55,361 nt of DNA, taken from IMG/VR virus record IMGVR_UViG_3300036781_000204, positions 1 to 55,361 of that record; one strand, written 5' to 3'. The position numbers were made by a program, and so were the translations under genes. The notes beneath the pieces were generated by a model. That model ran no database searches, was not told where the DNA came from, and saw nothing but the letters and a program-made list of their open reading frames with translations. This DNA comes from a virus. Taxonomy: Duplodnaviria > Caudoviricetes. Below, in pieces: positions 37,703-55,361 of the stretch; the stretch's first letter is position 1, and the number at the start of each line of letters is the position of its first letter.

Positions 37703-37703
37703 A

Positions 37704-40614: not shown

Positions 40615-40615
40615 A

Positions 40616-42590: not shown

Positions 42591-42626
42591 TTTCTGTCCT
42601 TTGGTTTTTACAAGATGGGTATTGTT

Positions 42627-43535
42627 TTATTTATTCTTCAGTTCTTCCATAGTAAATACTATGCCAGCCACCTCACGGATTTTAGACACCGCGTTCCTGC
42701 ATGTCTTCAGCAGCCACTCGTAGTGCTCTTTATTTCCACGTATCTGCTCCACCTTTTTCTCATTGCAGTAAAAGAACAGTGCGCTCGAAAGCGCCAACAC
42801 GGTGCGTTGCTGATTGGCTGTCCCGCCTTCCAAATGTGTCGGCCTTTCAATGAACTTCTGGAACTGAAGCACTGGGCTGGTTTTGGGTAAATTGGCCAGC
42901 TCGTTAAACTCTGTGGCAAATAAGTCTGCCGTGTCGGGTTCGACAGTTCTTAGAAGCGCCAATGGAGCGAGTATCCTTCCAGAGTATTTCTGGGAAGGCG
43001 CGTGGTTGGCACCCAGTATTTCAATGAGGGAGACGAAGTGATTCTTCATAAGGTTCGCCACCGCCATTCCCTGTGGGTTGCTCATCGCTCGGTCGCCAAA
43101 ACTAGTCACCATTAGCGCGAGTATTCTAGAGGCGCTGGCTATGGAGGAACTATACATAAATCCGTTGATTCCTAGCTGCTCCCCCAATGCCCGCTTACGA
43201 CCAATATCAAAGGTATCTATGGTTTTAAGGCTTTTGTTCACGTTCTCTGGAAGGTCCCACAGGACAATCATTGAGATCGTCACACCACTCCTAACTACAG
43301 CCGCTAAGCGATGTTGGCCGTCGAGTAGATTGCCATCAACGTCAAATGAGATGCCTTGGCCTGTCAGGGACCAATTTCCACCTTTCATATCCATTGCATA
43401 AATTTTAACCGTTCGTTCGTTCAATAGTCGTTGACGGAACTTCCCGTCCACTTGAGACCTTGAATGCTTTTCCAGTATTTCCATTGCCCATTCGGGTGTA
43501 ACCTGACGTATTTCCGATCTTGGTTTGCTGCTCAT
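42627..43535 (-). CDS. ParB/Srx-like protein (DGQHR motif)
   Basis: 'YA.DM..G.W..TGQGI.FD..G.LLDGQHRL.A'. Confidence 0.75.
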   Translation of the reverse strand: MSSKPRSEIRQVTPEWAMEILEKHSRSQVDGKFRQRLLNERTVKIYAMDMKGGNWSLTGQGISFDVDGNLLDGQHRLAAVVRSGVTISMIVLWDLPENVNKSLKTIDTFDIGRKRALGEQLGINGFMYSSSIASASRILALMVTSFGDRAMSNPQGMAVANLMKNHFVSLIEILGANHAPSQKYSGRILAPLALLRTVEPDTADLFATEFNELANLPKTSPVLQFQKFIERPTHLEGGTANQQRTVLALSSALFFYCNEKKVEQIRGNKEHYEWLLKTCRNAVSKIREVAGIVFTMEELKNK

Positions 43536-43573
43536 AATTGTCCCTTTTTTGGTTTTTGGTTTTAATTTCCGGC

Positions 43574-44734
43574 TCAAAAATCGTAGTGATCTTCGGCTGC
43601 ATCCAGTGCAAGCCGGAAGTTCTTCATGAGTTCAATTTCAGCGTCCGGCTTACGCACGCCGTTGTAGCTCTCCTCGACTTCGTAATTCTTCACCCATCCG
43701 TAGAGCTTCTTTTTATCTAGCTCTCCGATGGGTGTTCCCTGCTGGGCACCGAATGGAACGCAAACAGCCTTCCACCAGAGCACGTCCGGCTGACGGTCGC
43801 CATCCATGAACGCCTTCAGCTCCGCCATGATCGAGTCATACTGCTTTTTGACCGTCGGCACGTATTGGTTCGGCAGGTCTTCCAAGGCCTGCGTGTCGGT
43901 TAGCCACCCATTCGCCGTGAAGTATTGCATGGCAGATGTCCTGTAATCGGACAGAGCGGCGAGGAACCGGAACCGCTGATCTTTGTCCGCCTGCGCCGGG
44001 GGTGCCATTTGGGGCGCAACATCCTCAGTTCTGGCCGCTGGCCTTGAAGCGGGCTGGGGGGCTGGCGCTGCGTTTGGACGCTGGGTGGTGTCTTGAGACC
44101 CTCCAGACCGTCCTGGGGCATTGCGTGGACTTCGGCGCCTCTCGCTTTCCCGTTCCCACCACCCGGCACACCAGTCTTTTTTCCACGCTTGGAGTCCAAT
44201 TCCGAGTTCCTTGGCACACCGACGTAGGGCGGCAGTTTTTGCCCCCTCCACGGCGTCACCATAATTCTGGGTCTGGTTTTTCTTGTAGTAAACCATGTCG
44301 CCGACGGCCTCTGCCACAAAACAGCCGCGGACGAGCAACATTGCTTCGACGTAAATTCGGGTTGCGTCATCTCCGGTGGATGTTTTGAAGTCCTCACCCC
44401 ATCGGCTGCGGGGAACGATTGCCCACTGGCCCAAGCCGAACACGTTGTTCAACCGATCACGCAAAAAAGCGTGTTCGATGTAGATCAGGTTTTCTTTTCC
44501 GCCGGCTCCCGGCTTGAACGCTTCATCCGGAAAGTCGGCCTTCAGCGCCGCGCATTCTTCCGGGGTTAGGTTCAACATGCTCGCGCGCTCATACGCCTTC
44601 AGCGTCAGATTGGCCACTGCGTCCACGCGAGCCTGGGCCGGCGTCGTGGGGGCTGCGGGTGCTGGCGGTGGAAGGGCTGGGTCGCGGAGCTGCACTGCGG
44701 ACGATTCAACTGGGATTGCATCTTGTTCGTTCAT
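43574..44734 (-). CDS. Rad52/Mgm101-like single-strand annealing protein
   Basis: 'IYIEH..LRDRLNNVFG.GQWAIVPR...EGAKTAALRRCAKELGIG..W'; C-terminal 'PFG..QG..IGEL' domain. Confidence 0.8.
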   Translation of the reverse strand: MNEQDAIPVESSAVQLRDPALPPPAPAAPTTPAQARVDAVANLTLKAYERASMLNLTPEECAALKADFPDEAFKPGAGGKENLIYIEHAFLRDRLNNVFGLGQWAIVPRSRWGEDFKTSTGDDATRIYVEAMLLVRGCFVAEAVGDMVYYKKNQTQNYGDAVEGAKTAALRRCAKELGIGLQAWKKDWCAGWWERESERRRSPRNAPGRSGGSQDTTQRPNAAPAPQPASRPAARTEDVAPQMAPPAQADKDQRFRFLAALSDYRTSAMQYFTANGWLTDTQALEDLPNQYVPTVKKQYDSIMAELKAFMDGDRQPDVLWWKAVCVPFGAQQGTPIGELDKKKLYGWVKNYEVEESYNGVRKPDAEIELMKNFRLALDAAEDHYDF

Positions 44735-45114
44735 TTTGTTTTGTGTGTTTCGGCGTGGTGGTATTTGCAGAGCCACGTCACTTGAAGTGGTTTGGAATAA
44801 TCGTCATGGTGCGCCTCCACTATTGGATTGCCACACTCCTGACATGGGGATTTAGAAAGAGTGCCGTTTCTTGCAGCGTCTCTCGCGATACGGCGGGCGC
44901 GCATCTTCACTCGGAGTGATGGCGTGCGCCAATATCGTGAGAAATTCCGCAGTTCTCTTGCTCTGTTTTCGGGGCGGGAACGCCAGCGCCTTTTATTTCG
45001 TCTGGAGTGCGCCTTGGTCTTTGGGGAGCTCTTGGAATTTTTGAGCGGCCGGCCTTCGATTTTTCTCCTGATTCGATACTCTTTGGCGTAGGCACGTCTC
45101 TGTTCGACTGTCAT
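44731..45114 (-). CDS. HNH-like endonuclease
   Basis: 'PCQECG...EAHHDDYSKPL.V.WLC..HH...H'. Confidence 0.8.
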   Translation of the reverse strand: MTVEQRRAYAKEYRIRRKIEGRPLKNSKSSPKTKAHSRRNKRRWRSRPENRARELRNFSRYWRTPSLRVKMRARRIARDAARNGTLSKSPCQECGNPIVEAHHDDYSKPLQVTWLCKYHHAETHKTK

Positions 45115-45264
45115 ATCACAATGAAATTAAGCGGGGTTGCGAGTTTTCGGGCGGGACAGAACGCCTCATGCCACGTAAGTAGCAACATGATTCTCGCAAC
45201 CCCAGATTTGTTAATTCCTAAACCGTAGTGTCTCTTTCGATTGGAACATTATCACGTTCGTCAA

Positions 45265-46371
45265 TCACCCCCCACCGTAACCGCTCCAGTCCGGGTCTCC
45301 CGGCATGGATTCAGTTGAGGGAGCGTCGGTGATTGAGGGTTTATCTCCAGCTCCGATAGCCTTTGGAGCTGGTATCGACTGCTCCTCAAACTCGGCTGCG
45401 ATAATCTCACTCGCGAAATTCGGCATCTCGCGTTCCAAGTCATCCACATCGCACTTATGATGCAGGCAAGCCTTGAGAATAACTTCGTGAGCCCCCAGGG
45501 AAAGGTCGTTCATGGCATCCTGAACTTCCTCGAGCTCGAATTGAGAATGCTTGATCTCGAAGACTATCTCCTTCCACGCCGCCCGCGCCCTCTGCCATAG
45601 TGGAACTGTCTCGGACGAAAACGTCGAGTGAGTGTTTGAATTGGAGTGATAGTCGGGAAACATGCTTGGCGAGGCCGACACCTCCGGTTTCTTGATCTCG
45701 ATCATGTTCAATTTCCAGATCTCGGGAAATGGAACCGTCGATGGTTCGCACATCTGACGACGTGCCGTGATGCTGCGAATGTCTTTCGGAAGGAACTTTT
45801 GGAACTGCACCGGACACTCGGCCATGATGTCGCCAGTATCCCAGAACCAGCTCAGGTCCGGCTCGAAGCACAGCCCCTTTCGATAGAATCGCGCATGAAT
45901 GTCGTGCAGCTTCTCATCCATCTTTCCCACGGTGATGTGGATTCCATCCTGACCTTTTTCATTTTCCAAATCCACGCCGGACTGGAATGCGCTCATTGAG
46001 CAATGGTGATGAACCGTGCCGAAGTAAAGCCACGTCGCATCGAACTGCTCGCGTTGCTTTTTCGACTCATCGTTCACGACTTCACGTGCCGACATTCCGC
46101 TCTTGGCTTCCTGGGGATATGCCCACGCAGCCCACGTCTGCTCCTGCACGTTGACGTAGAGGCGAACTTGCGACTCGCTTTTGTAGGTATCGTAAGTCCA
46201 TTTGAAGAACGCCAGAACTCGCTGCCATTCCTCTTTTGGTATATTCGGCCCCACCCATGTCAGAGATGCCGACGTTTTCTCGATCTTGTGCTCGAACGAG
46301 CACTCGAATAGTCCATCGATCTCCTCCGACTCGGAGATGACCTTCTTATTTTTATCATGTTTCATTTTCAC
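45265..46371 (-). CDS. JAB/JAMM metallopeptidase (deubiquitinase-like)
   Basis: Upstream Glu (SESQV) plus HxH-x7-S-x2-D (HHHCSMSAFQSGVD); 'DGIHITVG'; acidic C-terminal tail. Confidence 0.85.
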   Translation of the reverse strand: MKMKHDKNKKVISESEEIDGLFECSFEHKIEKTSASLTWVGPNIPKEEWQRVLAFFKWTYDTYKSESQVRLYVNVQEQTWAAWAYPQEAKSGMSAREVVNDESKKQREQFDATWLYFGTVHHHCSMSAFQSGVDLENEKGQDGIHITVGKMDEKLHDIHARFYRKGLCFEPDLSWFWDTGDIMAECPVQFQKFLPKDIRSITARRQMCEPSTVPFPEIWKLNMIEIKKPEVSASPSMFPDYHSNSNTHSTFSSETVPLWQRARAAWKEIVFEIKHSQFELEEVQDAMNDLSLGAHEVILKACLHHKCDVDDLEREMPNFASEIIAAEFEEQSIPAPKAIGAGDKPSITDAPSTESMPGDPDWSGYGGG

Positions 46372-46411
46372 TGAGTCTGTCCTTTCTTTTTGTTTTGGTT
46401 TTTTAATCGCC

Positions 46412-47275
46412 CTAACCTTCCGAATCCAACCGAGAAGTGGTTCCCGGAGAAATCCTGTCCAGAAGAACTCTCAAGTTTGCCTTAACCTCGCGCTGGTTCC
46501 AGCTCCAATTGAATTCGTCATTGTCACTGGCTTCGTGGTTTGAGTATTCATAGCCCCCGTCGATTTGATCTGGCTCAGGAACGGCAATCCAGCTAACATT
46601 ATTGCTAATACTGTCATCCATGAGATCACGAATGCTATCCATGAAATCCTCCCAAGTATCGGACTCATCTGCTTCTCGGATGATGTCCTGCTCCGTTAGT
46701 TCCACACTTCCGGAACCTCTCATCACTACCGAGTAATCAGCCGTTCCTGACTCGGGTTGGGCCGCCTCAAACGAGATGCTTAAATAGGACGGTCTCGGCG
46801 CTACGCTGACCGGACGTGGGCTTGCTGGGGCTGGCGACGGCCAACCTGGAAGCTCTGGTGGGTCGTAGTTAAACTCAATCCATTTCTTGATCTGTGCATA
46901 TGACACACAGTCATCGGGGATTGTGATGTTGAGGTGAGCCAGAATCACGGCGCGAACCGTGTTGTTCTGGGGAGCCACCTTTATGAGGTTGATGACGCTG
47001 GTCGGAAGCACTCTGTCAATCGTGCATTTCTGAACCTGCGCGACCACCGCAGGATTCGCGGCCGGGTCTTCCTTTGGAAGTTCCGGCGGTGGTGATGCGC
47101 CAGGGTCAGAGTTCACGATATTGTCGATTCGAGTGATGGTCTCCGACACCTGTTCGGCGAGAGACCGTGCGAGCGACAAGTCACCATTGTCCGGTGGTGG
47201 CAGGGGGTCGGGAGTATATATATTCGTAATAGGCTCCGGGGGCTCATCCTCCCAATTATCAAACTCGTTACTCAT
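46412..47275 (-). CDS. Acidic Pro-rich protein of the Ubl operon (function unknown)
   Basis: 287 aa between E1 and JAB; AAAGGACA upstream. Confidence 0.7.
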   Translation of the reverse strand: MSNEFDNWEDEPPEPITNIYTPDPLPPPDNGDLSLARSLAEQVSETITRIDNIVNSDPGASPPPELPKEDPAANPAVVAQVQKCTIDRVLPTSVINLIKVAPQNNTVRAVILAHLNITIPDDCVSYAQIKKWIEFNYDPPELPGWPSPAPASPRPVSVAPRPSYLSISFEAAQPESGTADYSVVMRGSGSVELTEQDIIREADESDTWEDFMDSIRDLMDDSISNNVSWIAVPEPDQIDGGYEYSNHEASDNDEFNWSWNQREVKANLRVLLDRISPGTTSRLDSEG

Positions 47276-47984
47276 CTTGCTGTCCTTTCATTTCGGTTTC
47301 TGGTTCGGTTGTTTTAAGGGCGTCGGAGATTTTGAATGTCTCCAGCTTGGTCATGTTCGCCACGAGGCGATACGGCAGGCTGCCTCTGGTCTTTTCGCTG
47401 AACTTGTCAGCCTTCAAATGCCAGAGCGCAAACAGATGACCGGCCAGTGAAGCGGCCAGCGAATTACTCGTGACGAGCTGAAGGTTCGCCTTCTGAGCCT
47501 CGCCGGTGCAACCGGCCGACCGGGATCTCGGGTCGCCACTATGGTCAGTGAGGATGTCGGGGAAGTAAACCCTCGGGTCGATCTTTGTCTCCTTCCACGC
47601 AGACTCGTAGTAATACGCCTCCGCGGAGTGAGTCTCGTTCGCCGCGAAGATGGCGCGACACTCGTGACGGTCACACTCACCGAGCGCAGCTCGACGAGCG
47701 GCGTGATTGTCCACGCAGACGATTATCCAATCGCTTTGGCGGAACTCCAGCAGTCCCTCACAAAACCATTCCGGTCTTGATTGGCACTGGTAGCGTTCAG
47801 CGAGTGCATCGGCCTTGTTCCGACCCACATCCTTTTGATTGAACAACTGACGGTCGAGGTTTTTGCTCTCGAGCGTGTCGCCGTCGATCATGGTGATGAG
47901 TTTCGGTGAAGTGAGCAGCGTGAGAGCTGGCACCAACCAGGAGCCAACGCCTCCGCATCCAATGATATAGATATTTCCTTTCAT
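47268..47984 (-). CDS. ThiF/E1-like adenylating enzyme
   Basis: GCGGVGS, IDGD, NLDRQ, K, CVDN..AR, candidate catalytic Cys in 'AGC(T)'. Confidence 0.92.
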   Translation of the reverse strand: MKGNIYIIGCGGVGSWLVPALTLLTSPKLITMIDGDTLESKNLDRQLFNQKDVGRNKADALAERYQCQSRPEWFCEGLLEFRQSDWIIVCVDNHAARRAALGECDRHECRAIFAANETHSAEAYYYESAWKETKIDPRVYFPDILTDHSGDPRSRSAGCTGEAQKANLQLVTSNSLAASLAGHLFALWHLKADKFSEKTRGSLPYRLVANMTKLETFKISDALKTTEPETEMKGQQDE

Positions 47985-48316
47985 ACGATTATTTGTGTGT
48001 CCCGATTTCGTTGAAGGACGCCGACGATTGTCACGGCCGGATTCGGCTTAGTGAGATCGCTGTTCATCCTTTCTCTAGTGCGATAAATGATGGCATCGAA
48101 CAATTCCAGATCGTGCATTGATATGTATTGAGTCCTTACCGATGTAGACATTATGAGAAGGACGGCCGTGGCCGTGTGTCCAAAGACAACCCTCCCTATC
48201 TCGTCTTGGATTTGAAGTATTCCTGATTTCAAGGAATCCTCAATGGCAGTCCGATTATCAATTCGATAGACGGCACTATTAAGCGCCTCCACCAGTTCTG
48301 GATTTGGTTGGCTCAT
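47981..48316 (-). CDS. Hypothetical protein of the Ubl operon
   Basis: ATGA-coupled to both E2 and E1. Confidence 0.6.
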   Translation of the reverse strand: MSQPNPELVEALNSAVYRIDNRTAIEDSLKSGILQIQDEIGRVVFGHTATAVLLIMSTSVRTQYISMHDLELFDAIIYRTRERMNSDLTKPNPAVTIVGVLQRNRDTQIIV

Positions 48317-49050
48317 AGCACGATGTATTTAAGGATTGCGGTTGATACCTTATTACAAAGTCTCCACCATTCACCTTCGATTGGCAGAGTTTGAAATCCA
48401 TCTTTGAGAGGCTTGAAGTGGAAGAATTTGGAAGTGATTCCGTTGTCGTCTCCGTAATACAAATCCGTGTTATACGGCGCGCTGCGGAACTGGGCGATGG
48501 CCTTCTCCACCGACTCAAACGCGGTTGGAGAGACTGAGCTGTATTCCCCGTTGCAAATCTCACCCGTGTCATAGATGTTCGCCATCGGCATCCGGTAGGC
48601 GTTTCCATCTTTGCTGAAGGCGAATAGATACTGCTTCAGCACTCGAGCCCCGCTAGGTCCCGATGCAACGTGAGCGACGAATCGAATCAGTGGAGTGTCG
48701 CGGCCAGCCAGGGCTTGCTCAACATTCCATGCAATCGACAATTTCGGGTCCGACTTCGCGAACGTGGGAACCAGTTGGGCGTCCTCGCCTTCACCGGAAG
48801 CCTTGAACGTGCTTTTGAAGACGATCTCCGCCAGCGGAATCGTCCAGTATTGTGTGCTATCCTTCGGGTCGATGGACACATTCACCACGCCACACCCAGG
48901 CATCGTGAACATATTCTTGACCTTTAATATCGCACCGGATGAGAACGCTTTTCCAAGCGCTTCTCCAGGGTCGATTTCGTCCTCCGTGACGGAGCGACGA
49001 ACCATTCTACCGTCGGCGCTGATCGCCCATTCTGCTTTTACAATTGGCAT
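48313..49050 (-). CDS. Prokaryotic E2-like conjugating enzyme (Prok-E2 family D / PRTRC protein B-like)
   Basis: 'YRMPMANIYDTGEICNG...F..AP.N.DL' with candidate catalytic Cys. Confidence 0.75.
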   Translation of the reverse strand: MPIVKAEWAISADGRMVRRSVTEDEIDPGEALGKAFSSGAILKVKNMFTMPGCGVVNVSIDPKDSTQYWTIPLAEIVFKSTFKASGEGEDAQLVPTFAKSDPKLSIAWNVEQALAGRDTPLIRFVAHVASGPSGARVLKQYLFAFSKDGNAYRMPMANIYDTGEICNGEYSSVSPTAFESVEKAIAQFRSAPYNTDLYYGDDNGITSKFFHFKPLKDGFQTLPIEGEWWRLCNKVSTAILKYIVL

Positions 49051-49069
49051 AATCTGTCCTTTTTAAATG

Positions 49070-49104
49070 GAAAAACCGGCCGCAAGGTTTCGCCCCACGG
49101 CCGG
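49070..49104 (-). terminator. Intrinsic terminator between Ubl and E2 genes
   Basis: Minus strand CCGGCCGTGGGG-CGAAA-CCTTGCGGCCGG-TTTTT. Confidence 0.75.
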
Positions 49105-49121
49105 AGTTATTTTTGTTTTCG

Positions 49122-49367
49122 TTACGCCGCCACGAGTTCGAGCTCGTTGGCTTTCGTATTCGCAGCGGTCTCAACAAGCACCTCTGCGTCCGGCGGAACG
49201 ATGGCCTCGTCCGGCATCGTGACCCCGTTAATCATGAGGTTCACGTTGTCGCCGTAGCCCAGTTGGGCACGAAGGTCTTCGTCGCGTCGGATGGAACCGA
49301 TGGTGATGGGCGAGGAACTCTCGAGAGGTTCCACGTCCACTCCATATTTAACTCTGCATTTGAACAT
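49122..49367 (-). CDS. Ubiquitin-like (beta-grasp) protein
   Basis: 81 aa; 'T(I)G.I...L....NV.LMING...D..V..DAEVLVETAANTKA' ThiS/MoaD-like pattern; adjacent to E2, E1 and JAB. Confidence 0.75.
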   Translation of the reverse strand: MFKCRVKYGVDVEPLESSSPITIGSIRRDEDLRAQLGYGDNVNLMINGVTMPDEAIVPPDAEVLVETAANTKANELELVAA

Positions 49368-49412
49368 TTGATAATCCTTTGTTCAGGTTTTGGTTGGTTT
49401 ATGCGGCTCGAA

Positions 49413-49703
49413 TTACAGAGCTGCTTGAGTGCCGGCGCCGGTGTTGACCGCAACCGTGGTCGCTTCAGCCAGCTTCACGGCCAGGTCGTTCACTTCAGCC
49501 TGCGCCTTGCCGATTTCCTGCTGGAGCACCGCGATGCGCTTGTCGCTTTCCGCGTTCTCGGCATCAATCGCGGACTTCCGCGCGTTGTTCACACGCTGCG
49601 TTTCCAGCTCACCGTTCACGGACTGAATCAGCGGCTTGATACGACGGTCAGCGAGTGCGGTGACTTGGGTATTGACGTAGGCTTTAACTTGATCTGCGTT
49701 CAT
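49413..49703 (-). CDS. Coiled-coil hypothetical protein
   Basis: Heptad-rich; directly upstream of the Ubl gene. Confidence 0.65.
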   Translation of the reverse strand: MNADQVKAYVNTQVTALADRRIKPLIQSVNGELETQRVNNARKSAIDAENAESDKRIAVLQQEIGKAQAEVNDLAVKLAEATTVAVNTGAGTQAAL

Positions 49704-49826
49704 TTTTTCTGTCTTTCTTTCGTTGTGTGCGATAGGAGCAGTTCGCTCCGTTTGACGTATCGCTCGTCACCAGTTTGAAGACTGGCCTTGGCCGGCTCAC
49801 TGTTTTGAACCGGCCAACGCTAGTTG

Positions 49827-50270
49827 TCAATACTTTGCGAACTCTCCGTGGAGAGTTTTTATCCTTTCCTCAGCATACTGTTTGGCCTCGGCCAATTTTT
49901 TGAAGTATCGAACCTTATCCCTTTTTCCGTCTTTAGTGATCTGGACGATGAACTTTTTGGCGCCTTTATGCCAGTGAACACATTTTACTCCCGTAGTATT
50001 GTTGGATAAACGCTCTCGGTTCATTTGATTTTGAGACTTGGTGCAGAGACGCAGGTTGGACTTTCGGTTATCCAACTTATTTCTGTTTTTATGGTCTCGC
50101 TCCATTTCATAAGGACAGTCAATAACGTCCCAATGCATGTGGTGTGACAACCCGTCAACCTTTCTCGCGGCATATCTCCCGGTGAAGTGCCACTTGAATT
50201 TGGAGAGTCTTTCAAAATCATCGTCATCGACGATTGCCTCCTTTCCTTGTGTTAATTTTATAGTTTTCAA
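49827..50270 (-). CDS. HNH-AP2 homing endonuclease
   Basis: 'IKLTQGKEAIVDDDDF', 'DHKNRNKLDNRKSNLR', AP2-like 'TGVKCVHW...F..LAEAK'. Confidence 0.9.
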   Translation of the reverse strand: MKTIKLTQGKEAIVDDDDFERLSKFKWHFTGRYAARKVDGLSHHMHWDVIDCPYEMERDHKNRNKLDNRKSNLRLCTKSQNQMNRERLSNNTTGVKCVHWHKGAKKFIVQITKDGKRDKVRYFKKLAEAKQYAEERIKTLHGEFAKY

Positions 50271-50495
50271 TCAATGATTTCCATTTTTTCGGCCATGAAT
50301 CTGGAATAAAACCGCATACGCCAAATATCCCGCGTCCACGCCCTTGGCCTCCAATTCACTCTGGAACGAGTGGAAATACAGCTTCAGCTTCTTTCCTTTT
50401 TCAAAATCGTCCAGCGATTCATTTAGGATGCGGGTGACTTCCTTACATTGATCCTCAGTGAGAATCTCACCGAGCGAAGTGATTTTTTCTGACAT
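50271..50495 (-). CDS. Hypothetical protein
   Basis: MSEKITSLGE... in the early arm. Confidence 0.5.
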   Translation of the reverse strand: MSEKITSLGEILTEDQCKEVTRILNESLDDFEKGKKLKLYFHSFQSELEAKGVDAGYLAYAVLFQIHGRKNGNH

Positions 50496-50649
50496 GATGG
50501 GGATTCTTTTTGATAACGAACTTCGGTGGTTTCTGAATGGTGGCGCACATGACTTGACCAGTGGGATGGACCACCGTCCAGTGAATGATAACCCCGTCGC
50601 CGTGCTCGATCTGCTCGAACACGGACGCCTTATCTTTGGCTGCCGACAT
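50467..50649 (-). CDS. Hypothetical protein
   Basis: AAAGGACA upstream of the ATG. Confidence 0.55.
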   Translation of the reverse strand: MSAAKDKASVFEQIEHGDGVIIHWTVVHPTGQVMCATIQKPPKFVIKKNPHHVRKNHFAR

Positions 50650-50724
50650 GATTCTGTCCTTTCATTTGTTCGTGGCTTTAGCGCCACAGTCCGGGGACTC
50701 ACGTGAAATCACCGGAGTGTGAGA

Positions 50725-51297
50725 CTATGGCTTGAACGTGCCCTTGTTTTTGATGATGTTCTTGCAGATGGCGACGAGGCGCTCTGTGTCGTTATCTTCA
50801 TAATTTCCAAAAAAGACTGCCTTTCCCAAACTTTCGTCTTTGGCATTCCTGTGATGTGAATCGGTGCGCTGCTCAAACGCAGCTTCCAACAAGTCCACTT
50901 GGGCCTTCGGAAAGTATTTCTCGAGAATCTTCATTCCCTCGTCGTAACCATCCATCTCGAATCCTTTCTCAATGCTTCCTGGGATAGTGTCCTGATTGAA
51001 CAGTCGGATGGCGCTAGCGCACGCGGCACCCACCGCACAACAGGTGCAATTCGCAGCCGGAGTATCAATCACAATCGTCTTTCTTCCACCAAGCAACGCG
51101 GCCTGGATAATCTTGGAATTATTTTCCCCAGCTCCCGGAGATTCGTTTCCAGCCGGGTCAACTTCCAGCCACGTGCCTTTCTGGATGTCATACTTATGGG
51201 CTTTTATCTGCTTGAGAATGTCGTTCGCGATGGCGATGCGCTTCTCGGCGGCGCCCAATCGGGAGAACGATTTTGGTTTTGATGCTGACTTTGGCAT
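50725..51297 (-). CDS. Hypothetical protein
   Basis: AAAGGACA upstream of MPKS; 'CTCCAVG', 'RL.AI..NII.N.GTF.P'. Confidence 0.7.
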   Translation of the reverse strand: MPKSASKPKSFSRLGAAEKRIAIANDILKQIKAHKYDIQKGTWLEVDPAGNESPGAGENNSKIIQAALLGGRKTIVIDTPAANCTCCAVGAACASAIRLFNQDTIPGSIEKGFEMDGYDEGMKILEKYFPKAQVDLLEAAFEQRTDSHHRNAKDESLGKAVFFGNYEDNDTERLVAICKNIIKNKGTFKP

Positions 51298-51367
51298 TTT
51301 TTGTCCTTTGTTTTTGGAACGTGATTGTTCCAGTGTGGCCAGACTCGCCGGCCACAGTGGAGGAATC

Positions 51368-51390
51368 AAATACGCAACGGTTGCGTTTTT
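51368..51390. promoter_or_regulatory. Palindromic operator-like site, copy 4
   Basis: AAATACGCAACGGTTGCGTTTTT, essentially intergenic. Confidence 0.65.
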
Positions 51391-51610
51391 ACTTTAGTCC
51401 TTGGCGCTTCAGTCGCATCGTGCGTTTGAATTTCGAGCGTCGTTCAGGGGTCCATGCTCTGAGTTTTCTGGGCAGTGGAAGCTGGAGTGGGTTTGGCAAC
51501 TTGCTGATGTCTCCAGTTAAAATTCCATCGAACTCGTTTTGAAGTGCTTCGATCTGGTCTTTAATGTCCGCGGCTCGACGAAGCGAGGCGGCGCTGATTT
51601 GGATGTTCAT
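51389..51610 (-). CDS. Small basic nucleoid-associated-like protein
   Basis: 'SAASLRRAADIKDQIEALQNE...IL' coiled coil plus basic tail 'WTPERRSKFKRTMR'. Confidence 0.6.
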   Translation of the reverse strand: MNIQISAASLRRAADIKDQIEALQNEFDGILTGDISKLPNPLQLPLPRKLRAWTPERRSKFKRTMRLKRQGLK

Positions 51611-51703
51611 TTCTGCCCTTTCATGTGGCGCTGATTCATTCAACGCCAGAGGCAATCTGCCTCGCTCGTGGTGCGACTTGCGCCACACCACGACCGAAGC
51701 CGG

Positions 51704-51853
51704 TTACGGCTCAGGAGCTTCGTCAACCAGGTTTTGCACGCCATCGACGAGGGTTTCGTAATTGGATTGTGTGTCCGGCTTTTGCTCGCTCGTTTCCGCA
51801 GTCGCGATCAATGCCTTCATTTTTTCAACCCACGCTTTTTGTTCTTCGTTCAC
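51704..51853 (-). CDS. Hypothetical protein
   Basis: AAAGGACA upstream of GTG 51853. Confidence 0.45.
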   Translation of the reverse strand: MNEEQKAWVEKMKALIATAETSEQKPDTQSNYETLVDGVQNLVDEAPEP

Positions 51854-51895
51854 TGTCTGTCCTTTGGTTAATGCTGGCGTTATTGCCAGCAAATC

Positions 51896-52339
51896 TTAAA
51901 TTCTTTTCAGCACCAATTTTTCCACATTCCATACGCACCCGCTCGCCACGTCCCACGGGTAATACCACGAGCAGTCGTCGTTGAACCGAAGTGAGTGCTG
52001 GTAGGGACTTATCTCGATTCCGTCAAACTCTTTTGCCACAGCTTTCCAATCCAGGCTGGTGTGGTTGAATTGATCGGTGACACCAAATTTTCGGCTGAAC
52101 AGCAGCACGGATATGGCGTCCTGAAGCAGGAGCATGTTGCAGGCGCTCACATCGACTTCGTATTTGAGATCGTGAATCCAATGGGGCATTTCCGACTGGC
52201 ACCACTCCGACCACGAACCGTCCACGTCATACCAGAATCCCTTCGGTTTACAGTCAGGCTTGCCGGTCTGAGTTACAGAATTAAGCCTCTCGATTGGCTT
52301 TTTGCACAGGTGGGCCCTAACTATTTTTGTTTCAGTCAT
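51896..52339 (-). CDS. Hypothetical protein
   Basis: 'KPKGFWY...W.EWC...DW..VA..FDGIEI...WDVASGCVWN' conserved-looking viral motif. Confidence 0.65.
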   Translation of the reverse strand: MTETKIVRAHLCKKPIERLNSVTQTGKPDCKPKGFWYDVDGSWSEWCQSEMPHWIHDLKYEVDVSACNMLLLQDAISVLLFSRKFGVTDQFNHTSLDWKAVAKEFDGIEISPYQHSLRFNDDCSWYYPWDVASGCVWNVEKLVLKRI

Positions 52340-52409
52340 ATTTCCTTTGGTTGAATTGCCGTCAAAGAGGGCAGCGGTGAGATCGGATTCCGCTGCCGTG
52401 CTTTGTGGG

Positions 52410-52733
52410 CTATTTCCACTTAAGATGTTCGAGCCCATCGCCGTCGGGTGATATCATTCCAGACTTAACGCCCTTGTCGTAGGCTTCTGGATGCAGCTCC
52501 AATTCCTGCTTGTCGATGGTGGGTAAGAACATGAGTGAATCAGTTGGAATGATGGCTCCCCAGCTCGGCCAGGGAGCGAAAGCGATGGCGTGGTTTTGCA
52601 GAACAAATCCCTTATTGTCTGGGAGCCTGAGAGCCCACGGTGATTCCACGTAACCCTTGCCATCCTCCAGCCTGACTTTTGTAAGTGGCAGTCCCTCGAG
52701 TGGAGTTGTTACTTTAGATCGTTTGTATTTCAT
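52410..52733 (-). CDS. Hypothetical protein
   Basis: ORF in the early arm. Confidence 0.55.
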   Translation of the reverse strand: MKYKRSKVTTPLEGLPLTKVRLEDGKGYVESPWALRLPDNKGFVLQNHAIAFAPWPSWGAIIPTDSLMFLPTIDKQELELHPEAYDKGVKSGMISPDGDGLEHLKWK

Positions 52734-52752
52734 AAATAGTCAGTCGATGGTT

Positions 52753-53019
52753 TTATTCCTGATGCGATTGCTGTTCTGGTTCTTCGGGTGGTGGCGGGAA
52801 CATTCCCGAGATGTCGCTCATCTTAATCACGGTCACGTCCTTCGGTTTTTCTGGTCCGACCCACGCTTCAATCTCGACTTCGTAATCTCGCTCGGTGATG
52901 CGCTCCATTGACGCCATCATGAGCAGGAGCCGGCGGGAAGCGATGGCTGCGAATGCGGCCGCGTCCTGTTTGTCCGAGAATTTCGCATTGACCACGAGGG
53001 TCACAGTTTGTTTTTCCAT
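52753..53019 (-). CDS. Hypothetical protein
   Basis: ORF in the early arm. Confidence 0.55.
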   Translation of the reverse strand: MEKQTVTLVVNAKFSDKQDAAAFAAIASRRLLLMMASMERITERDYEVEIEAWVGPEKPKDVTVIKMSDISGMFPPPPEEPEQQSHQE

Positions 53020-53025
53020 AGGTTT

Positions 53026-53280
53026 TTATCGTCTGACGGGTGCTAGCGCATTCTCTACCACAATGTTCGATGGTTTCGAGAGACTGAAGACGCACGAGTC
53101 GTTCACATTCACGTAAATGTCGCCCTCCTCGGTAATCATTACGTTAACTTGGGAGGGCGACACGACGCGCATGAATTTGTTTCCGTCAGCGTCAGTGTTG
53201 GAGAACACGCAGTTTTTGTTTTTTGAGCTCATAAAAGAGATACCGGGGAGTATTGTCCTCCCCGGTGTTGATTTGATCAT
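53026..53280 (-). CDS. Hypothetical protein
   Basis: ORF in the early arm; start uncertain (53280 or 53232). Confidence 0.45.
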   Translation of the reverse strand: MIKSTPGRTILPGISFMSSKNKNCVFSNTDADGNKFMRVVSPSQVNVMITEEGDIYVNVNDSCVFSLSKPSNIVVENALAPVRR

Positions 53281-53282
53281 CC

Positions 53283-53816
53283 TCAGGCGTCCACCGTGTT
53301 CTTTTCCGCTTCGGCGAGCGCAGCCACTTGGCGACCACGCATCGTCTGAACTTCGGCGACGGTGCATCCGAGTGACTTGGCGATGGCCTCGTCGCTCGGT
53401 CCCGTATTCCGCTTGATTTCCTTGACCACGATGGAGATCTGTTTCACTCCATTTCCCAGGGTGCGCTGGGCCACCTTTGCGAGCGTCCAATCGGCACCGA
53501 GCGCCGCCACTTGACCCTTTACCGCGCGGAAGGCTTCATCGGACTGTCCCAAGATCGCTTTTTCGAGCGCATCCTTGTTGTCCTTCCCGGTGAGTCCGAG
53601 GGCAGTCGCCATGTCCTTGCGCGACTTCATCGTGACGCTCGAGCCCACGTCCACGCCCTTGCCATTCTTTATGACTTTGGCGCCGAACACCTTGCCGATG
53701 TCGTCATTGATGAAGCCCATTAGTCCCAACTGCTTCGGCTTTTGAGCTGTAGCCATCGTAATGGGTTCGATGTTTTCGGTGGCATTGCTGCTGGTCACTG
53801 CTGTTTCTGTTTTCAT
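53283..53816 (-). CDS. Hypothetical protein with C-terminal HTH-like segment
   Basis: 'SDEAIAKSLGCTVAEV'; AAAGGACA upstream. Confidence 0.65.
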   Translation of the reverse strand: MKTETAVTSSNATENIEPITMATAQKPKQLGLMGFINDDIGKVFGAKVIKNGKGVDVGSSVTMKSRKDMATALGLTGKDNKDALEKAILGQSDEAFRAVKGQVAALGADWTLAKVAQRTLGNGVKQISIVVKEIKRNTGPSDEAIAKSLGCTVAEVQTMRGRQVAALAEAEKNTVDA

Positions 53817-53924
53817 GACTGTCTGTCCTTTCGATCACGCCGCTTGATTGCTGCGCGCCGGTGTGAACCGGGAGCAAAGGGAAATCAATCCCTGCTCCCG
53901 AGCCACTGAGGACAGCTCTACACC

Positions 53925-54239
53925 TTATGCTTCTGGTGATGGTTGCACTTTCCAGTCACCATATCCGCCCACATTCCAGCTCTCAATGCTCCAGCCTTGG
54001 CAAGAAACAGCGAAGTCTCGAACGAAGGCAGCGATGCCAGTCCGGTGTTCTCGAATGCCACAGCTTGCCAGCCATCCACCCTCCTTTCGCCAGTCGTTTA
54101 TAACTGGTTTATCCCCCTCTTTCCACATGCCGATTGTCACCAGTCCCGAACCAGTGTTCCAAAGCACCATGTGCCATCCATAGGTGTCAATAACATCGAA
54201 TGGTCGGCCCGATTTGATTGCAGCGATGGCAGCATTCAT
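53925..54239 (-). CDS. Hypothetical protein
   Basis: Trp-rich ORF coupled to the upstream ORF. Confidence 0.5.
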   Translation of the reverse strand: MNAAIAAIKSGRPFDVIDTYGWHMVLWNTGSGLVTIGMWKEGDKPVINDWRKEGGWLASCGIREHRTGIAAFVRDFAVSCQGWSIESWNVGGYGDWKVQPSPEA

Positions 54240-54421
54240 ATCGCGTAGTCATCCCAAGCCCAATCGGTGTTCAGCGCGCGCGCTCTCACTTCGGCAGTTT
54301 GGAGACCGATGTCCCGCCCCCACGAAGCCCACTTCAGGTTGGCAATCCGAACTCGTTCAAGCCGGGCCAGCTCAACAGCCGACGCCTCATCCAACACCGA
54401 CACCATTGTTGATTGGCTCAT
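54236..54421 (-). CDS. Hypothetical protein
   Basis: Coupled small ORF. Confidence 0.45.
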   Translation of the reverse strand: MSQSTMVSVLDEASAVELARLERVRIANLKWASWGRDIGLQTAEVRARALNTDWAWDDYAI

Positions 54422-54426
54422 ATGTT

Positions 54427-54618
54427 TTAATCCTGTGTCCGAATGTGAACCGTGCGCTTGTCATCCTTCCAATCAATACCCGAGACATTGAACGAAGACC
54501 CCGAACCGTCCTCGTGTTCGATTTGATTGATGAACTTGAATTCAACATCCTCATTTGACCCTTCCACGAGGATTGATGAACGGGATACGAACGCCGTTAG
54601 CAGCTTCCACTTTGACAT
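54427..54618 (-). CDS. Hypothetical protein (first gene of the leftward arm)
   Basis: 'I..IEHEDGSGSSFNV' motif; AAAGGACA upstream. Confidence 0.6.
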   Translation of the reverse strand: MSKWKLLTAFVSRSSILVEGSNEDVEFKFINQIEHEDGSGSSFNVSGIDWKDDKRTVHIRTQD

Positions 54619-54691
54619 GTTGTCCTTTCATGAGCAGTGCTTCATGCACCGCTCTACACCCTATGCAATCCATGATGGTTAAGCCCGATAC

Positions 54692-54720
54692 TTGACGCCC
54701 GGTGTGACGCCCGGTAGGAT
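54692..54720 (+). promoter_or_regulatory. Sigma70-like leaderless promoter with internal direct repeat
   Basis: TTGACG-N17-TAGGAT-N6-ATG(54727); TGACGCCCGGT occurs twice. Confidence 0.6.
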
Positions 54721-54726
54721 GCCACG

Positions 54727-54948
54727 ATGTGGTGTAGTAAACCTTACAAGGATGCCGTTAAGGGCCAACGTGTTATCATGGAAAGACTGGATGCCGCAGG
54801 GGATAAGGAAGTTGCGCTCTTACTTTCAACTTTCGCTAAACTGGAAATGCTGAAGCTTCGACTACGAATGAAGCCAGCTCCAAAGCCAATCGACGTGAGC
54901 AAGTCGAAGGTTAAGAGCGAGCAACCAGCCGAGCCAACCGAAGCGTAA
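54727..54948 (+). CDS. Hypothetical protein
   Basis: 73 aa after the promoter; basic C-terminus. Confidence 0.55.
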   Translation: MWCSKPYKDAVKGQRVIMERLDAAGDKEVALLLSTFAKLEMLKLRLRMKPAPKPIDVSKSKVKSEQPAEPTEA

Positions 54949-55151
54949 GGAATCTCTTTCGTTGCCGACCGTCCCTACGGGGTGCCCGGTGAGGGGCGCC
55001 ATTCTGTAACGTGCACTGTCTACCTCACCCACTTCTGAGAGATTTGGATTTTGGGAATACTACGATCAGATTCCGATTGGATTCCAGTCAACAACTGGAA
55101 CATGCCGGCCGGAGTCGATCAGGAAGACCCGATGGGGAATTATTAAGGGGG

Positions 55152-55361
55152 TATTTGAGGGAACTGTGTCAAGAGTCGATAACGATAACGTAGGTAGGAA
55201 ATCTTTGCCTGGTTTTGGGAGTTGTGGGAGTTGTGGGGGGGGGGCGCGATCAAATCGTGTCACACATCTCCACTCCGGAAGATTCACCCGGAAGCGCCCA
55301 CAAGTTGTCCCCGACTCGGACATTTGCCGAACGTGATACCTGGAGTCCTTCATGACATCGC
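55152..55361. repeat. Terminal direct repeat, right copy
   Basis: Matches 1-211 with one fewer G. Confidence 0.95.

What the first reader, a model, noticed from the sequence alone, without database searches (positions are those of the whole stretch)
49122..49175. Ubl lacks a Gly-Gly end and carries an SsrA-like degron tail (…ETAANTKA-NELELVAA)
Seen: the Ubl ends TKANELELVAA-stop. Known: ClpXP recognises C-terminal LAA-type ends like the tmRNA tag (E. coli AANDENYALAA), and JAB proteases mature Ubl precursors; PRTRC-type Ubls end in K-G. Inference: the mature end is probably ...TKA, exposed by JAB cleavage. The unprocessed precursor would be degraded by host ClpXP, making JAB a gate on the system. 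An alternative is that the Ubl delivers a degron to its targets, giving phage-directed proteolysis. From memory only, verrucomicrobial tmRNA tags resemble 'ANSNELALAA'; this needs checking.
Basis: partly seen in the sequence, partly recalled or inferred. Interest (0 to 1): 0.82.

Follow-up and report, generated by a model that had tools for sequence, protein, structure and literature searches.

The report
Phage ubiquitin-like protein with tmRNA-tag-like tail
A phage gene for a small ubiquitin-like protein ends in eight extra residues that closely resemble the "destroy me" tag of its likely host bacteria. The tail probably has to be clipped off before the protein can work, which would be a new way of controlling such a system.

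Summary
ORF 49122-49367 (minus strand) encodes an 81-aa protein ending ...ETAANTKA-NELELVAA-stop.

- **Fold:** it is a confident beta-grasp (ubiquitin-like) fold but matches no Pfam or NCBIfam Ubl model.
- **Operon:** it is the first gene of a conserved operon: Ubl, E2-like p245, ThiF-type E1, p287, then a canonical JAMM/JAB protease.
- **Boundary:** among 62 homologues, conservation stops exactly at ETAANxKA. 21 end there, 33 carry 5-8-residue tails, and 27 of those 33 fit EL..A-COOH. Tandem di- and tri-Ubl relatives repeat the KA end internally.
- **JAB model:** a complex model threads Ubl residues 66-76 through the JAB active site (score 0.87, best control 0.00).
- **Tag resemblance:** tmRNA tags in Verrucomicrobiota are mostly ANEELALAA (15 of 27 read in one order). 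This phylum holds 15 of 21 genome loci carrying the cassette. One homologue's tail is NEELALA.

Removal of the tail after KA is well supported. The tail's likeness to an ssrA tag is real. Degradation by ClpXP, and JAB acting as a gate, remain untested. This is a new variant of PRTRC/Bil/Bub-type systems.

The parts
49122..49367 (-). Gene for the 81-aa ubiquitin-like protein precursor, first gene of the operon
   Evidence: ORF. AF2 beta-grasp model, pLDDT above 90 for residues 1-67. Foldseek PDB hits to ubiquitin-like domains, 4 at E<=0.001. 61 homologues.
49149..49367 (-). Predicted mature Ubl, residues 1-73, ending in the conserved ETAANTKA
   Evidence: Invariant E66, T67, A68, N70, K72 and nearly invariant A69, A73 in 62 sequences. 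21 of 62 homologues stop exactly after KA.
49125..49148 (-). Eight-residue tail NELELVAA, a tmRNA-tag-like C-terminal extension and predicted propeptide
   Evidence: Low-confidence, probably flexible region in the model, pLDDT about 50. 27 of 33 family tails of 5-8 residues fit EL..A-COOH. Resembles the Verrucomicrobiota tag ANEELALAA.
49076..49104 (-). Terminator-like hairpin (12 pairs, 9 G-C, then TTTTT) between the Ubl gene and the next gene
   Evidence: A strong G+C-rich hairpin sits at the same place in 16 of 16 related loci folded, with different sequences.
48313..49050 (-). p245, a conserved second gene and candidate diverged E2
   Evidence: Present after the Ubl gene in 25 of 29 related loci; in the other 4 the locus ends within about 740 bases of the Ubl gene. 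Invariant P155, N158, C166. Weak Pfam Prok-E2_D matches in 11 of 20 members, best E 5.4e-4, below the cut-off. No PDB fold match.
47981..48316 (-). p111, a small ORF between p245 and E1 with no detectable relatives
   Evidence: No family hit. No tblastn hit in 29 related loci, although a gap of similar size exists there.
47268..47984 (-). ThiF-type E1-like adenylating enzyme, 238 aa
   Evidence: Pfam ThiF E 9.1e-18, 64.7 bits, above the 28.1 cut-off. Best NCBIfam hit is PRTRC_ThiF at 47.4 bits, below its 144.75 cut-off. 48-74% identical in related loci.
46412..47275 (-). p287, a conserved operon protein of unknown function
   Evidence: No family hit. A weakly similar gene (24-39% identity) sits at the same position in related loci.
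45265..46371 (-). JAB/JAMM metalloprotease, 368 aa, the predicted Ubl-processing enzyme
   Evidence: Invariant E66, H121-x-H123, S131, D134, the canonical E...HxHx7Sx2D motif, in 16 of 16 aligned sequences. Weak PRTRC_A hit over the motif. Complex model with the Ubl.

Best explanation
The 81-aa protein is the precursor of a phage-encoded ubiquitin-like modifier. Its reactive end is Ala73 of the conserved ...ETAANTKA.

1. The operon's JAMM/JAB protease cuts after Lys72-Ala73 and removes NELELVAA.
2. Only then can the ThiF-type E1 adenylate the C-terminus and pass the Ubl on, probably through the Cys166 protein p245.
3. The tail is more than a spacer. It imitates the C-terminal part of the tmRNA (ssrA) tag of the probable host group, Verrucomicrobiota, where the tag is ANEELALAA. 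An uncut precursor therefore looks like a tmRNA-tagged protein and is cleared by the host's tag-reading AAA+ proteases, most likely ClpXP.
4. A terminator-like hairpin follows the Ubl gene, so the Ubl is probably made in excess over the enzymes. The amount of stable mature Ubl would then be set by JAB activity.

Basis of each step:
- Shown from sequence: the fold, the operon, the KA boundary, the tail motif and its likeness to the tag.
- Supported by a model only: the Ubl tail lying in the JAB active site.
- Inferred: the cleavage itself, degradation by ClpXP, and the gating logic.
For: **Boundary.** Conservation stops at ETAANxKA. 21 of 62 homologues end there, 6 have 1-3 extra residues, 33 have 5-8 and 2 have more than 8. 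All 15 Verrucomicrobiota-labelled genome loci end at KA, one of them with a single extra residue.

**Tandem relatives.** 25 relatives carry 2 or 3 Ubl repeats. Most repeats keep a K-A or K-G end, followed by a short linker. As with polyubiquitin, that arrangement needs an endopeptidase.

**JAB.** The JAMM motif is intact in 16 of 16 sequences. In the complex model, Ubl residues 66-76 contact JAB E66, H121, H123 and S131-D134. The score is 0.87, the best of 3 controls is 0.00, the runs agree in at least 85% of contacts, and the partner pLDDT is at least 88. That mark was reached by 58 of 80 solved complexes and 2 of 110 mismatched pairs.

**Precedent.** JAB enzymes cleave Ubl pre-proteins in Bub and Bil systems (PMC11601596, passages).

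**Tail under constraint.** 32 of 33 tails end in Ala and 27 of 33 fit EL..A-COOH, while the first tail residue varies among 9 residue types.

**Tag likeness.**
- ARAGORN reads ANEELALAA in 15 of 27 tmRNAs from one Verrucomicrobiota order, and 22 of 27 end ELALAA.
- All 4 cassette-carrying MAGs with a tmRNA above the family cut-off have ANEELALAA: 2 by ARAGORN and 2 by my own frame reading.
- The tail of P0003, with its preceding Ala, matches the first 8 tag residues 8 of 8.
- Null test.

**Other points.**
- The window tail ends VAA and is the only [LVI]AA end among 592 frames.
- The tail is modelled as flexible, pLDDT about 50.
- ClpX is found in 3 of 5 cassette-carrying MAGs.
- A conserved hairpin follows the Ubl gene.
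Against: - There is no experimental evidence of cleavage or degradation.
- The host of this phage is not established. No tRNA genes, no CRISPR match, and no prophage of the tailed clade in 185,579 species genomes. Only the cassette, not the rest of the phage, is shared with the Verrucomicrobiota contigs examined.
- Only 11 of 33 tails end Ala-Ala, and 14 end Leu-Ala. A screen in E. coli found terminal Ala-Ala essential for ssrA-like degrons (PMC10862746, passages).
- The window tail is 5 of 9 identical to the tag without gaps. 3 to 15 of 2075 null ORFs score as well.
- Tail-less cassettes occur in hosts with the same tag, and 8 of 9 of them still carry JAB. The tail is therefore dispensable, and JAB has another role.
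- The complex model may partly reflect memory of solved JAMM-ubiquitin structures, and its calibration did not include a riding zinc.
- SspB was not found in 5 of 5 MAGs.
Confidence: 0.45

Rival explanations
1. Plain propeptide. JAB removes the tail, and its only role is to block premature activation by E1 or to serve as a handle for JAB, E1 or another operon protein. Its likeness to the tmRNA tag would then be a by-product of an Ala/Leu/Glu-rich helix-prone peptide.
For: - Ubl precursors with removable C-terminal extensions are common (Bub/Bil, PMC11601596 passages).
- A Cupriavidus PRTRC_C has a 5-residue extension after K-G that does not resemble an ssrA tag.
- Most family tails do not end Ala-Ala.
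- AF2 draws the tail as a helix, at low confidence.
- JAB contacts reach residue 76.
Against: - A mere block needs no conserved sequence. In the tandem and other relatives the extensions are 1-3 variable residues.
- The constrained part, the last five residues EL..A, is the part not contacted by JAB in the model, where contacts stop at residue 76.
- The match to the tag of the associated phylum is better than 2073 or more of 2075 null C-termini for the common tails.
Confidence: 0.27
2. Decoy. The abundant precursor, a stable beta-grasp domain with a tag-like tail, competes with host substrates for ClpXP or other tag readers. That would damp host proteolysis during infection, for example the degradation of antitoxins or of phage proteins.
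For: - The tag-like tail.
- The hairpin after the Ubl gene suggests the Ubl is made in excess.
- From recall only: phages are known to inhibit host Lon (T4 PinA, T7 Gp4.5).
Against: - Nothing bears on it directly.
- Tail-less relatives show the cassette works without the tail.
- The KA boundary argues that the tail is removed.
Confidence: 0.1
3. The tail is not removed. The full-length protein is the working form, and the E1 acts on the ...VAA end, or the protein acts without conjugation.
For: Cleavage has not been observed. The C-terminal residue is Ala in both the mature-type end (KA) and the tailed end.
Against: - Invariant ETAANxKA, with 21 of 62 natural proteins ending there.
- Internal KA ends in tandem repeats.
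- The model places K72-N74 at the JAB catalytic residues.
Confidence: 0.06
4. The Ubl carries the degron onto target proteins, giving phage-directed proteolysis through ClpXP.
For: The tail is degron-like.
Against: - Ubl conjugation uses the C-terminal carboxylate, which established ClpX recognition of ssrA needs free (PMC10862746 passages, and recall).
- The conserved reactive end is KA, upstream of the tail.
Confidence: 0.03

Closest known systems
PRTRC cassettes (ParB-related, ThiF-related; NCBIfam TIGR03734-03742), found on plasmids, ICEs and a few phages
   Same: - A small Ubl ending T-K-G or A-K-G (2 of 2 examples read), compared with T-K-A here.
- A ThiF-type E1; PRTRC_ThiF is the best NCBIfam hit, and annotated PRTRC ThiF proteins are among the top plasmid hits, 5 of the 12 listed, at 27-31% identity.
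- A JAB protein; PRTRC_A gives a weak hit over the JAMM motif.
- A Prok-E2_D-like protein.
- One PRTRC_C also has a short extension after K-G.
- PRTRC in a Burkholderia phage is noted as unstudied (PMC13366799, passages).
   Different: - All model scores are far below their cut-offs.
- The Ubl matches no PRTRC_C model: 0 of 62 members, none in the window, hhalign probability 1%.
- No ParB_N in the window.
- Gene order here is Ubl, E2-like, x, E1, x, JAB. In PRTRC it is ParB, E, C, F, B, A, ThiF.
- The end is Ala, not Gly.
- The tail is tag-like.
Bacterial Bil and Bub (6E) ubiquitination-like operons
   Same: Ubl, E1, E2 and a JAB/JAMM protease. JAB cleaves a pre-protein to expose the reactive C-terminus. 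Ubls have 1-3 beta-grasp domains (PMC11601596 passages; Iyer 2006, PMC1779556, passages).
   Different: - Those are host defence operons; this one is in a phage.
- Those Ubls end in Gly.
- In Type I Bub, JAB is fused to E1 and the Ubl to E2. Here all are separate genes.
- No DUF6527 protein was seen in the operon proteins scanned.
- No tag-like propeptide is reported in the passages read.
tmRNA (ssrA) tag and natural ssrA-like C-terminal degrons
   Same: A short, flexible, non-polar C-terminus ending V-A-A. The tail has the same length and the same A-N-E start as the Verrucomicrobiota tag ANEELALAA. A screen found [L/F/Y/W]-[L/A/R]-L-A-A to be the most potent C-terminal degron in E. coli (PMC10862746 passages).
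   Different: - It is encoded in the gene, not added by trans-translation.
- It sits behind a protease site, so here cleavage would remove a degron. From recall, RseA and LexA fragments work the other way: cleavage exposes a VAA end.
- Many family tails end L-A rather than A-A.
Eukaryotic ubiquitin, SUMO, NEDD8 and Atg8 precursors, and polyubiquitin
   Same: C-terminal extensions, or head-to-tail repeats, that a protease must remove before E1 activation (textbook knowledge). Tandem di- and tri-Ubl relatives exist here.
   Different: In eukaryotes the reactive residue is Gly and, from recall, the extensions are not conserved degrons. Here the reactive residue is Ala and the extension carries a conserved motif.

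Membership tests
Ubiquitin-like beta-grasp modifiers | Beta-grasp fold | tested here: met
   AF2 pLDDT 87.9, with strand-strand-helix-strand-strand order. Foldseek PDB: 4 hits at E<=0.001, all ubiquitin-like domains, TM 0.64-0.67.
Ubiquitin-like beta-grasp modifiers | C-terminal Gly or Gly-Gly as the reactive end | tested here: not met
   The conserved end is Lys-Ala: A73 is nearly invariant and K72 invariant. A few distant relatives have K-G.
Ubiquitin-like beta-grasp modifiers | Linked E1-type adenylating enzyme | tested here: met
   Pfam ThiF at 64.7 bits, above the 28.1 cut-off. Syntenic in all related loci long enough to show it except L019.
Ubiquitin-like beta-grasp modifiers | Covalent conjugation to targets | not testable with these tools
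   Needs biochemistry.
PRTRC system | Proteins pass the NCBIfam PRTRC models (ThiF, A, B, C) | tested here: not met
   PRTRC_ThiF 47.4 bits against a 144.75 cut-off. PRTRC_A 17.9 against 101.8. No B or C hit.
PRTRC system | Associated ParB-family protein | tested here: not met
   No ParB_N match in the whole window at E<=0.01. None in 10 neighbouring ORFs scanned with Pfam.
PRTRC system | Gene order E-C-F-B-A-ThiF | tested here: not met
   Two annotated plasmid cassettes show that order. The window has Ubl, p245, p111, E1, p287, JAB.
JAB/JAMM metalloproteases | E...HxHx7Sx2D zinc-site motif | tested here: met
   E66, H121, H123, S131, D134 invariant in 16 of 16 sequences.
Ubl precursors processed at the C-terminus | Conservation ends at the reactive residue, and extensions vary or are absent in relatives | tested here: met
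   21 of 62 end at KA. Extensions range from 1 to 25 residues in the others.
Ubl precursors processed at the C-terminus | Cleavage by the cognate protease | not testable with these tools
   Only a model: score 0.87 against a best control of 0.00, with Ubl residues 66-76 in the JAB site.
ssrA-like C-terminal degrons | Free C-terminus ending hydrophobic-Ala-Ala | tested here: met
   The window ends V-A-A. In the family, only 9 of 33 tails end [LVI]AA and 11 of 33 end AA.
ssrA-like C-terminal degrons | Resemblance to the host's own tmRNA tag | tested here: inconclusive
   The tail resembles the Verrucomicrobiota tag ANEELALAA. The host of this phage is inferred, not shown.
ssrA-like C-terminal degrons | Degradation dependent on ClpXP or another AAA+ protease | not testable with these tools
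   ClpX is present in 3 of 5 cassette-carrying MAGs. There is no functional test.
Prokaryotic E2 (Pfam Prok-E2_D), for p245 | Passes the family model, or has a UBC-like fold with a catalytic Cys | tested here: inconclusive
   11 of 20 members match weakly, best E 5.4e-4, below the 25-bit cut-off. Invariant N158 and C166 lie 8 residues apart. No Foldseek PDB hit at E<=0.001.

The most novel reading that the evidence does not exclude
The tail is a copy of the host's tmRNA tag, possibly captured at the DNA level from the host ssrA gene. A related phage locus matches the tag-coding stretch of verrucomicrobial tmRNA genes at 31 of 39 aligned bases, with one missing Ala codon, and the match continues past the stop codon.

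The phage would then use the host's trans-translation quality-control pathway as a switch. The Ubl precursor is treated as a failed translation product unless the phage JAB rescues it by cutting the tag off. Alternatively, the precursor floods the tag-reading proteases. Either way it would be the first Ubl system whose activity is gated by a removable ssrA-type degron, and the first viral mimic of a tmRNA tag.
Probability: 0.3. Interest if true: 0.85.

Novelty: new variant of a known kind. Interest (0 to 1): 0.72.

Why it matters
Ubl, E1, E2 and JAB cassettes on mobile elements (PRTRC and its relatives) have been known from sequence for about 20 years, yet they have no known function or regulation. 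This family adds three things:
- a clean, testable processing site (after Lys-Ala, not Gly);
- natural tailed, tail-less and tandem forms that can be compared;
- a tail that imitates the degradation tag of the probable host.

If the tail works as a degron, it links bacterial ubiquitin-like conjugation to ATP-dependent proteolysis. That link was left open in Iyer et al. 2006 (PMC1779556, passage). It would also show a virus borrowing the host's ribosome-rescue tag as a control element. Every step can be tested with a few recombinant proteins.

Tried and rejected
- **Family searches for the Ubl.** Pfam, NCBIfam, PADLOC and PHROGs gave nothing. Scanning all 62 members gave no Ubl family.
- **hhalign of the family against one PRTRC_C.** Probability 1%.
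- **P0123 (680 aa, 7 matched stretches).** Rejected as spurious after reading its low-complexity repeat sequence.
- **Host assignment.**
  - No tRNA or tmRNA in the window.
  - A DNA search of window 36000-55361 against 401 Verrucomicrobiota genomes gave only weak gene-level similarity (66-74%) and one 27-base match at 96%. That match lies inside a 489-aa ORF with no repeat array, so I rejected it as a CRISPR spacer. The other 36 kb of the window was not searched this way.
  - tblastn of window ORFs of at least 120 aa against 120 kb of two MAG contigs found only the four operon proteins. Those elements are therefore not the same phage.
- **PHROGs on 10 large window ORFs.** Only a helicase matched, so no terminase or capsid was available for a host search.
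- **Fold of p245.** The model is confident (pLDDT 86.8), but Foldseek PDB found no hit at E<=0.001. The E2 assignment stays tentative.
- **Metagenome scan for more tailed loci.** It returned 20 loci, nearly all from the tail-less clade. The one closer locus is a record already held. The DNA-capture idea therefore rests on 4 phage loci.
- **DNA comparison of tail regions with tmRNA genes.** 21 of 24 comparisons did not exceed their own 100 shuffles. The three that did were L061 against two tmRNAs (29, shuffle maxima 26 and 24) and the window against one tmRNA (23, maximum 22). Given the same peptide, the chance of 4 or more identical codons out of 5 is 0.018, and of GCG after the stop 0.02. This pair was picked after looking, so it is a lead only.
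- **Tools and files not available.** Supplementary files of papers were not opened; the Bub paper's Table S1 and figures may list tails or phage-borne operons that I could not see.
- **Claim "not in print".** Searches listed no paper describing an ssrA-like tail on a Ubl or a phage tmRNA-tag mimic. I read only listings and the passages cited.
Full report
**1. What is there**

The window is a 55,361-base virus record, estimated 98% complete. On the minus strand, ORF 49122-49367 encodes 81 residues ending ...VETAANTKANELELVAA, followed by TAA.

The protein matches no model in Pfam, NCBIfam, PADLOC or PHROGs. None of its 61 homologues matches a Ubl family either.

An AlphaFold2 model built on the 62-sequence alignment is confident, with mean pLDDT 87.9 and values above 90 through residue 67. 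It has the strand-strand-helix-strand-strand order of a beta-grasp. Confidence falls to about 50 over the last two ten-residue blocks. Foldseek against the PDB gives 4 hits at E<=0.001, all ubiquitin-like domains: the BAG1 UBL, Bacteroides fragilis ubiquitin and Caldiarchaeum ubiquitin. Ubiquitin, ISG15, FAT10 and SUMO follow, at TM 0.6-0.67. It is therefore a Ubl by fold and a new family by sequence.

**2. Context**

The gene heads a minus-strand operon:
- Ubl;
- a 245-aa protein (p245);
- a 111-aa ORF (p111);
- a 238-aa ThiF-type E1 (Pfam ThiF 64.7 bits, above the cut-off; best NCBIfam hit PRTRC_ThiF at 47.4 bits, far below its 144.75 cut-off);
- a 287-aa protein (p287);
- a 368-aa protein with a weak PRTRC_A hit.

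Across 29 related loci (21 from species genomes; 8 from viral contigs), the order Ubl, p245, E1, p287, JAB is kept wherever the locus is long enough. The exception is L019, which has only the Ubl and p245.

The 368-aa protein and 15 orthologues all keep E66, H121-x-H123, S131 and D134. This is the canonical JAMM motif.

p245 has invariant P155, N158 and C166. It gives weak sub-threshold matches to Pfam Prok-E2_D in 11 of 20 members. Its confident model finds no PDB fold match, so "E2-like" is tentative.

The window has no ParB_N and no PRTRC_C match. Two annotated plasmid PRTRC cassettes have a different gene order. The system is a distant, rearranged relative of PRTRC, not a member.

**3. The boundary**

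In the 62-sequence alignment, E66, T67, A68, N70 and K72 are invariant, and A69 and A73 nearly so. After K-A:
- 21 sequences stop;
- 6 have 1-3 more residues;
- 33 have 5-8;
- 2 have 20 or more.

All 15 loci from Verrucomicrobiota-labelled genomes end at KA, one of them with a single extra residue.

The exhaustive representative search found 85 relatives. Of these, 26 showed two or more matched stretches. One (P0123) is a spurious low-complexity match. The other 25 are tandem di- or tri-Ubls. In most of them each repeat keeps a ...K-A or ...K-G end, followed by a short linker or by 0-3 final residues. This is the polyubiquitin arrangement. It makes sense only if an endopeptidase cuts after K-A or K-G.

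One of them has a 5-residue extension after K-G.

**4. JAB as the processing enzyme**

I modelled the JAB domain (residues 1-235, 16-row alignment), the Ubl (62-row alignment) and zinc together.
- Score 0.87 (three runs: 0.85-0.88); best of three controls 0.00.
- The runs agree in at least 85% of contacts, and the partner pLDDT is at least 88.
- The mark was reached by 58 of 80 solved complexes and 2 of 110 mismatched pairs. The tool warns that these counts hold only roughly here.
- The confident interface includes JAB E66, H121, H123 and S131-D134 and Ubl residues 66-76. H121 touches K72.

This fits a cut at or next to A73|N74. The last five tail residues are not in the confident interface. 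JAMM-ubiquitin complexes have been solved, so the pass may partly be memory of those. It supports the claim but does not show it. JAB enzymes are known to cleave pre-proteins to expose the reactive end in Bub and Bil operons (PMC11601596, passages).

Against a pure maturase role: JAB is present in 8 of 9 loci whose Ubl ends exactly at KA and that extend far enough to show it. It must also do something else, most simply deconjugation.

**5. The tail and the tmRNA tag**

The 33 tails of 5-8 residues are not random. 32 end in Ala and 27 fit EL..A-COOH. Their last five residues are almost entirely A, L, E, V or C. The first tail residue varies among nine residue types.

I then read tmRNA tags from genomes that carry the cassette.
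- Of five MAGs, four have a tmRNA above the Rfam cut-off.
- ARAGORN reads ANEELALAA in two of them. The other two contain the same frame at the expected position.
- In a sample of the same order, 27 of 31 genomes gave a tmRNA. Among 27 tags read, 15 are ANEELALAA and 22 end ELALAA.
- In a phylum-wide sample, all 29 tags end Ala-Ala and 15 start ANE. ANEEFALAA (6) and ANEEYALAA (4) are the commonest, and ANEELALAA occurs twice.
- Two non-verrucomicrobial MAGs that hold a cassette contig have ANDDNYALAA and ANRPLTLAA.

The comparison runs as follows:
- Counted from Ala73, the window's end A-NELELVAA has the same length as the tag. It shares A-N-E and the final A-A, 5 of 9 residues without gaps.
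- The P0003 end A-NEELALA equals the first eight tag residues.
- The commonest tail, TRELALA (7 sequences), equals the tag in register from the Ala but lacks the final Ala.

Against 2075 other ORF ends, 0-2 reach the scores of NEELALA or TRELALA. The only two null frames at or above their k=9 scores are tmRNA tag frames. For the window's own tail, 3-15 reach its score. Within the window, it is the only one of 592 frames ending [LVI]AA.

**6. How strong is the degron reading?**

For:
- the likeness to the tag;
- the flexible tail;
- a V-A-A end in this window;
- ClpX in 3 of 5 cassette-carrying MAGs.

Against:
- Only 11 of 33 tails end Ala-Ala and 14 end Leu-Ala. In an E. coli screen the terminal Ala-Ala was essential, and the best 5-mers were [L/F/Y/W]-[L/A/R]-L-A-A (PMC10862746, passages).
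- SspB was not found in 5 of 5 MAGs.
- The host of the tailed clade is unknown.
- Tail-less cassettes live in genomes with the same tag.

I put removal of the tail after KA at about 0.85. I put the full statement, a removed tail that also serves as a proteolysis signal, at 0.45.

**7. Two further observations bear on mechanism**

First, a 12-pair hairpin followed by TTTTT lies 18 bases after the Ubl stop codon. A comparable G+C-rich hairpin, with a different sequence, sits between the Ubl gene and p245 in 16 of 16 related loci folded. The Ubl is therefore probably transcribed in excess over the enzymes. That suits a model in which the supply of JAB limits how much precursor is rescued.

Second, in locus L061 the Ubl gene's 3' end aligns with the tag-coding stretch of two verrucomicrobial tmRNA genes at 31 of 39 bases by my count. 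There is one 3-base gap, which is the missing last Ala codon, and the match continues for 3 bases past the stop. Given the same peptide, 4 or more identical codons out of 5 has probability 0.018, and the three bases after the stop 0.02. This was chosen after looking at 24 comparisons, 21 of which did not exceed their shuffles. It is a lead for capture of the tag from a host ssrA gene and nothing more.

**8. Comparison and novelty**

By mechanism the system works like the Bil, Bub and PRTRC class: Ubl, E1, a likely E2 and JAB, with JAB-dependent maturation. It fails the membership tests for PRTRC and does not have the Bub architecture.

PRTRC cassettes in phages have only recently been noted and remain unstudied (PMC13366799, passages). 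Iyer et al. 2006 predicted JAB processing of bacterial Ubls and described polyUbl operons. They wrote that links to ATP-dependent proteolysis were unclear (PMC1779556, passages).

Six literature searches listed nothing on a tmRNA-tag-like tail on a Ubl or on a phage mimic of the tag. I read only listings and cited passages, and supplements were closed.

I rate it a new variant of a known kind, with interest 0.72.

Noticed in passing
window 49076-49104 (minus strand); the same position in L001-L064: A strong terminator-like hairpin lies directly after the Ubl gene and before p245. The structure is conserved but the sequence is not, in 16 of 16 related loci folded. It suggests attenuation that sets the Ubl-to-enzyme ratio.
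   Followed up: partly
proteins P0062-P0132: 25 relatives are tandem di- or tri-Ubl proteins of 144-231 aa. Most repeats keep the K-A or K-G end, followed by a short linker, so they look like polyubiquitin-like precursors.
   Followed up: partly
L061:5640-5700, compared with the tmRNA loci L024 and L025: The 3' end of a related phage's Ubl gene matches the tag-coding stretch of verrucomicrobial tmRNA genes at 31 of 39 bases, with one codon missing, and the match continues past the stop. This may mean the tag was captured from a host ssrA gene.
   Followed up: partly
window 48313-49050 (minus strand): p245 has invariant P155, N158 and C166, with an E2-like N-to-C spacing of 8, and weak Prok-E2_D similarity. 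Its confident model has no PDB fold match, so it may be a strongly diverged or new E2-like fold.
   Followed up: partly
window 47981-48316 (minus strand): The ORF between p245 and E1 (p111) has no detectable homologue in any of the 29 related loci, although each has a gap of similar size there. It may be a fast-evolving specificity or regulatory gene.
   Followed up: no
window 43574-44776 (minus strand): A 400-aa protein matches Mgm101p (E 3.2e-16) and Rad52/22, so it is a single-strand annealing recombinase. It lies next to the Ubl operon, with HNH-type genes nearby (HNH_3 at 49827-50270).
   Followed up: no
window 8916-27792: Nine of ten large ORFs have no PHROG match at E<=1e-5. Only the helicase at 37704-39458 matched. 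The phage is far from described families.
   Followed up: no
L019 (genome contig): One Verrucomicrobiota contig carries only the Ubl and p245, with no E1 or JAB in 9 kb downstream. Another contig of the same MAG (L017) carries the E1 and p287 as well, though it is too short to show JAB.
   Followed up: partly
L109:2126-2350 (Cupriavidus plasmid): An annotated PRTRC protein C has five residues after its K-G end, and another ends exactly at K-G. C-terminal extensions therefore also occur in canonical PRTRC Ubls.
   Followed up: partly
L056 (genome G033): One genome of the sampled order has a second tmRNA gene with a different tag (ANNMQFAYAA) beside the usual ANEELALAA one. It may be carried by a mobile element.
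   Followed up: no
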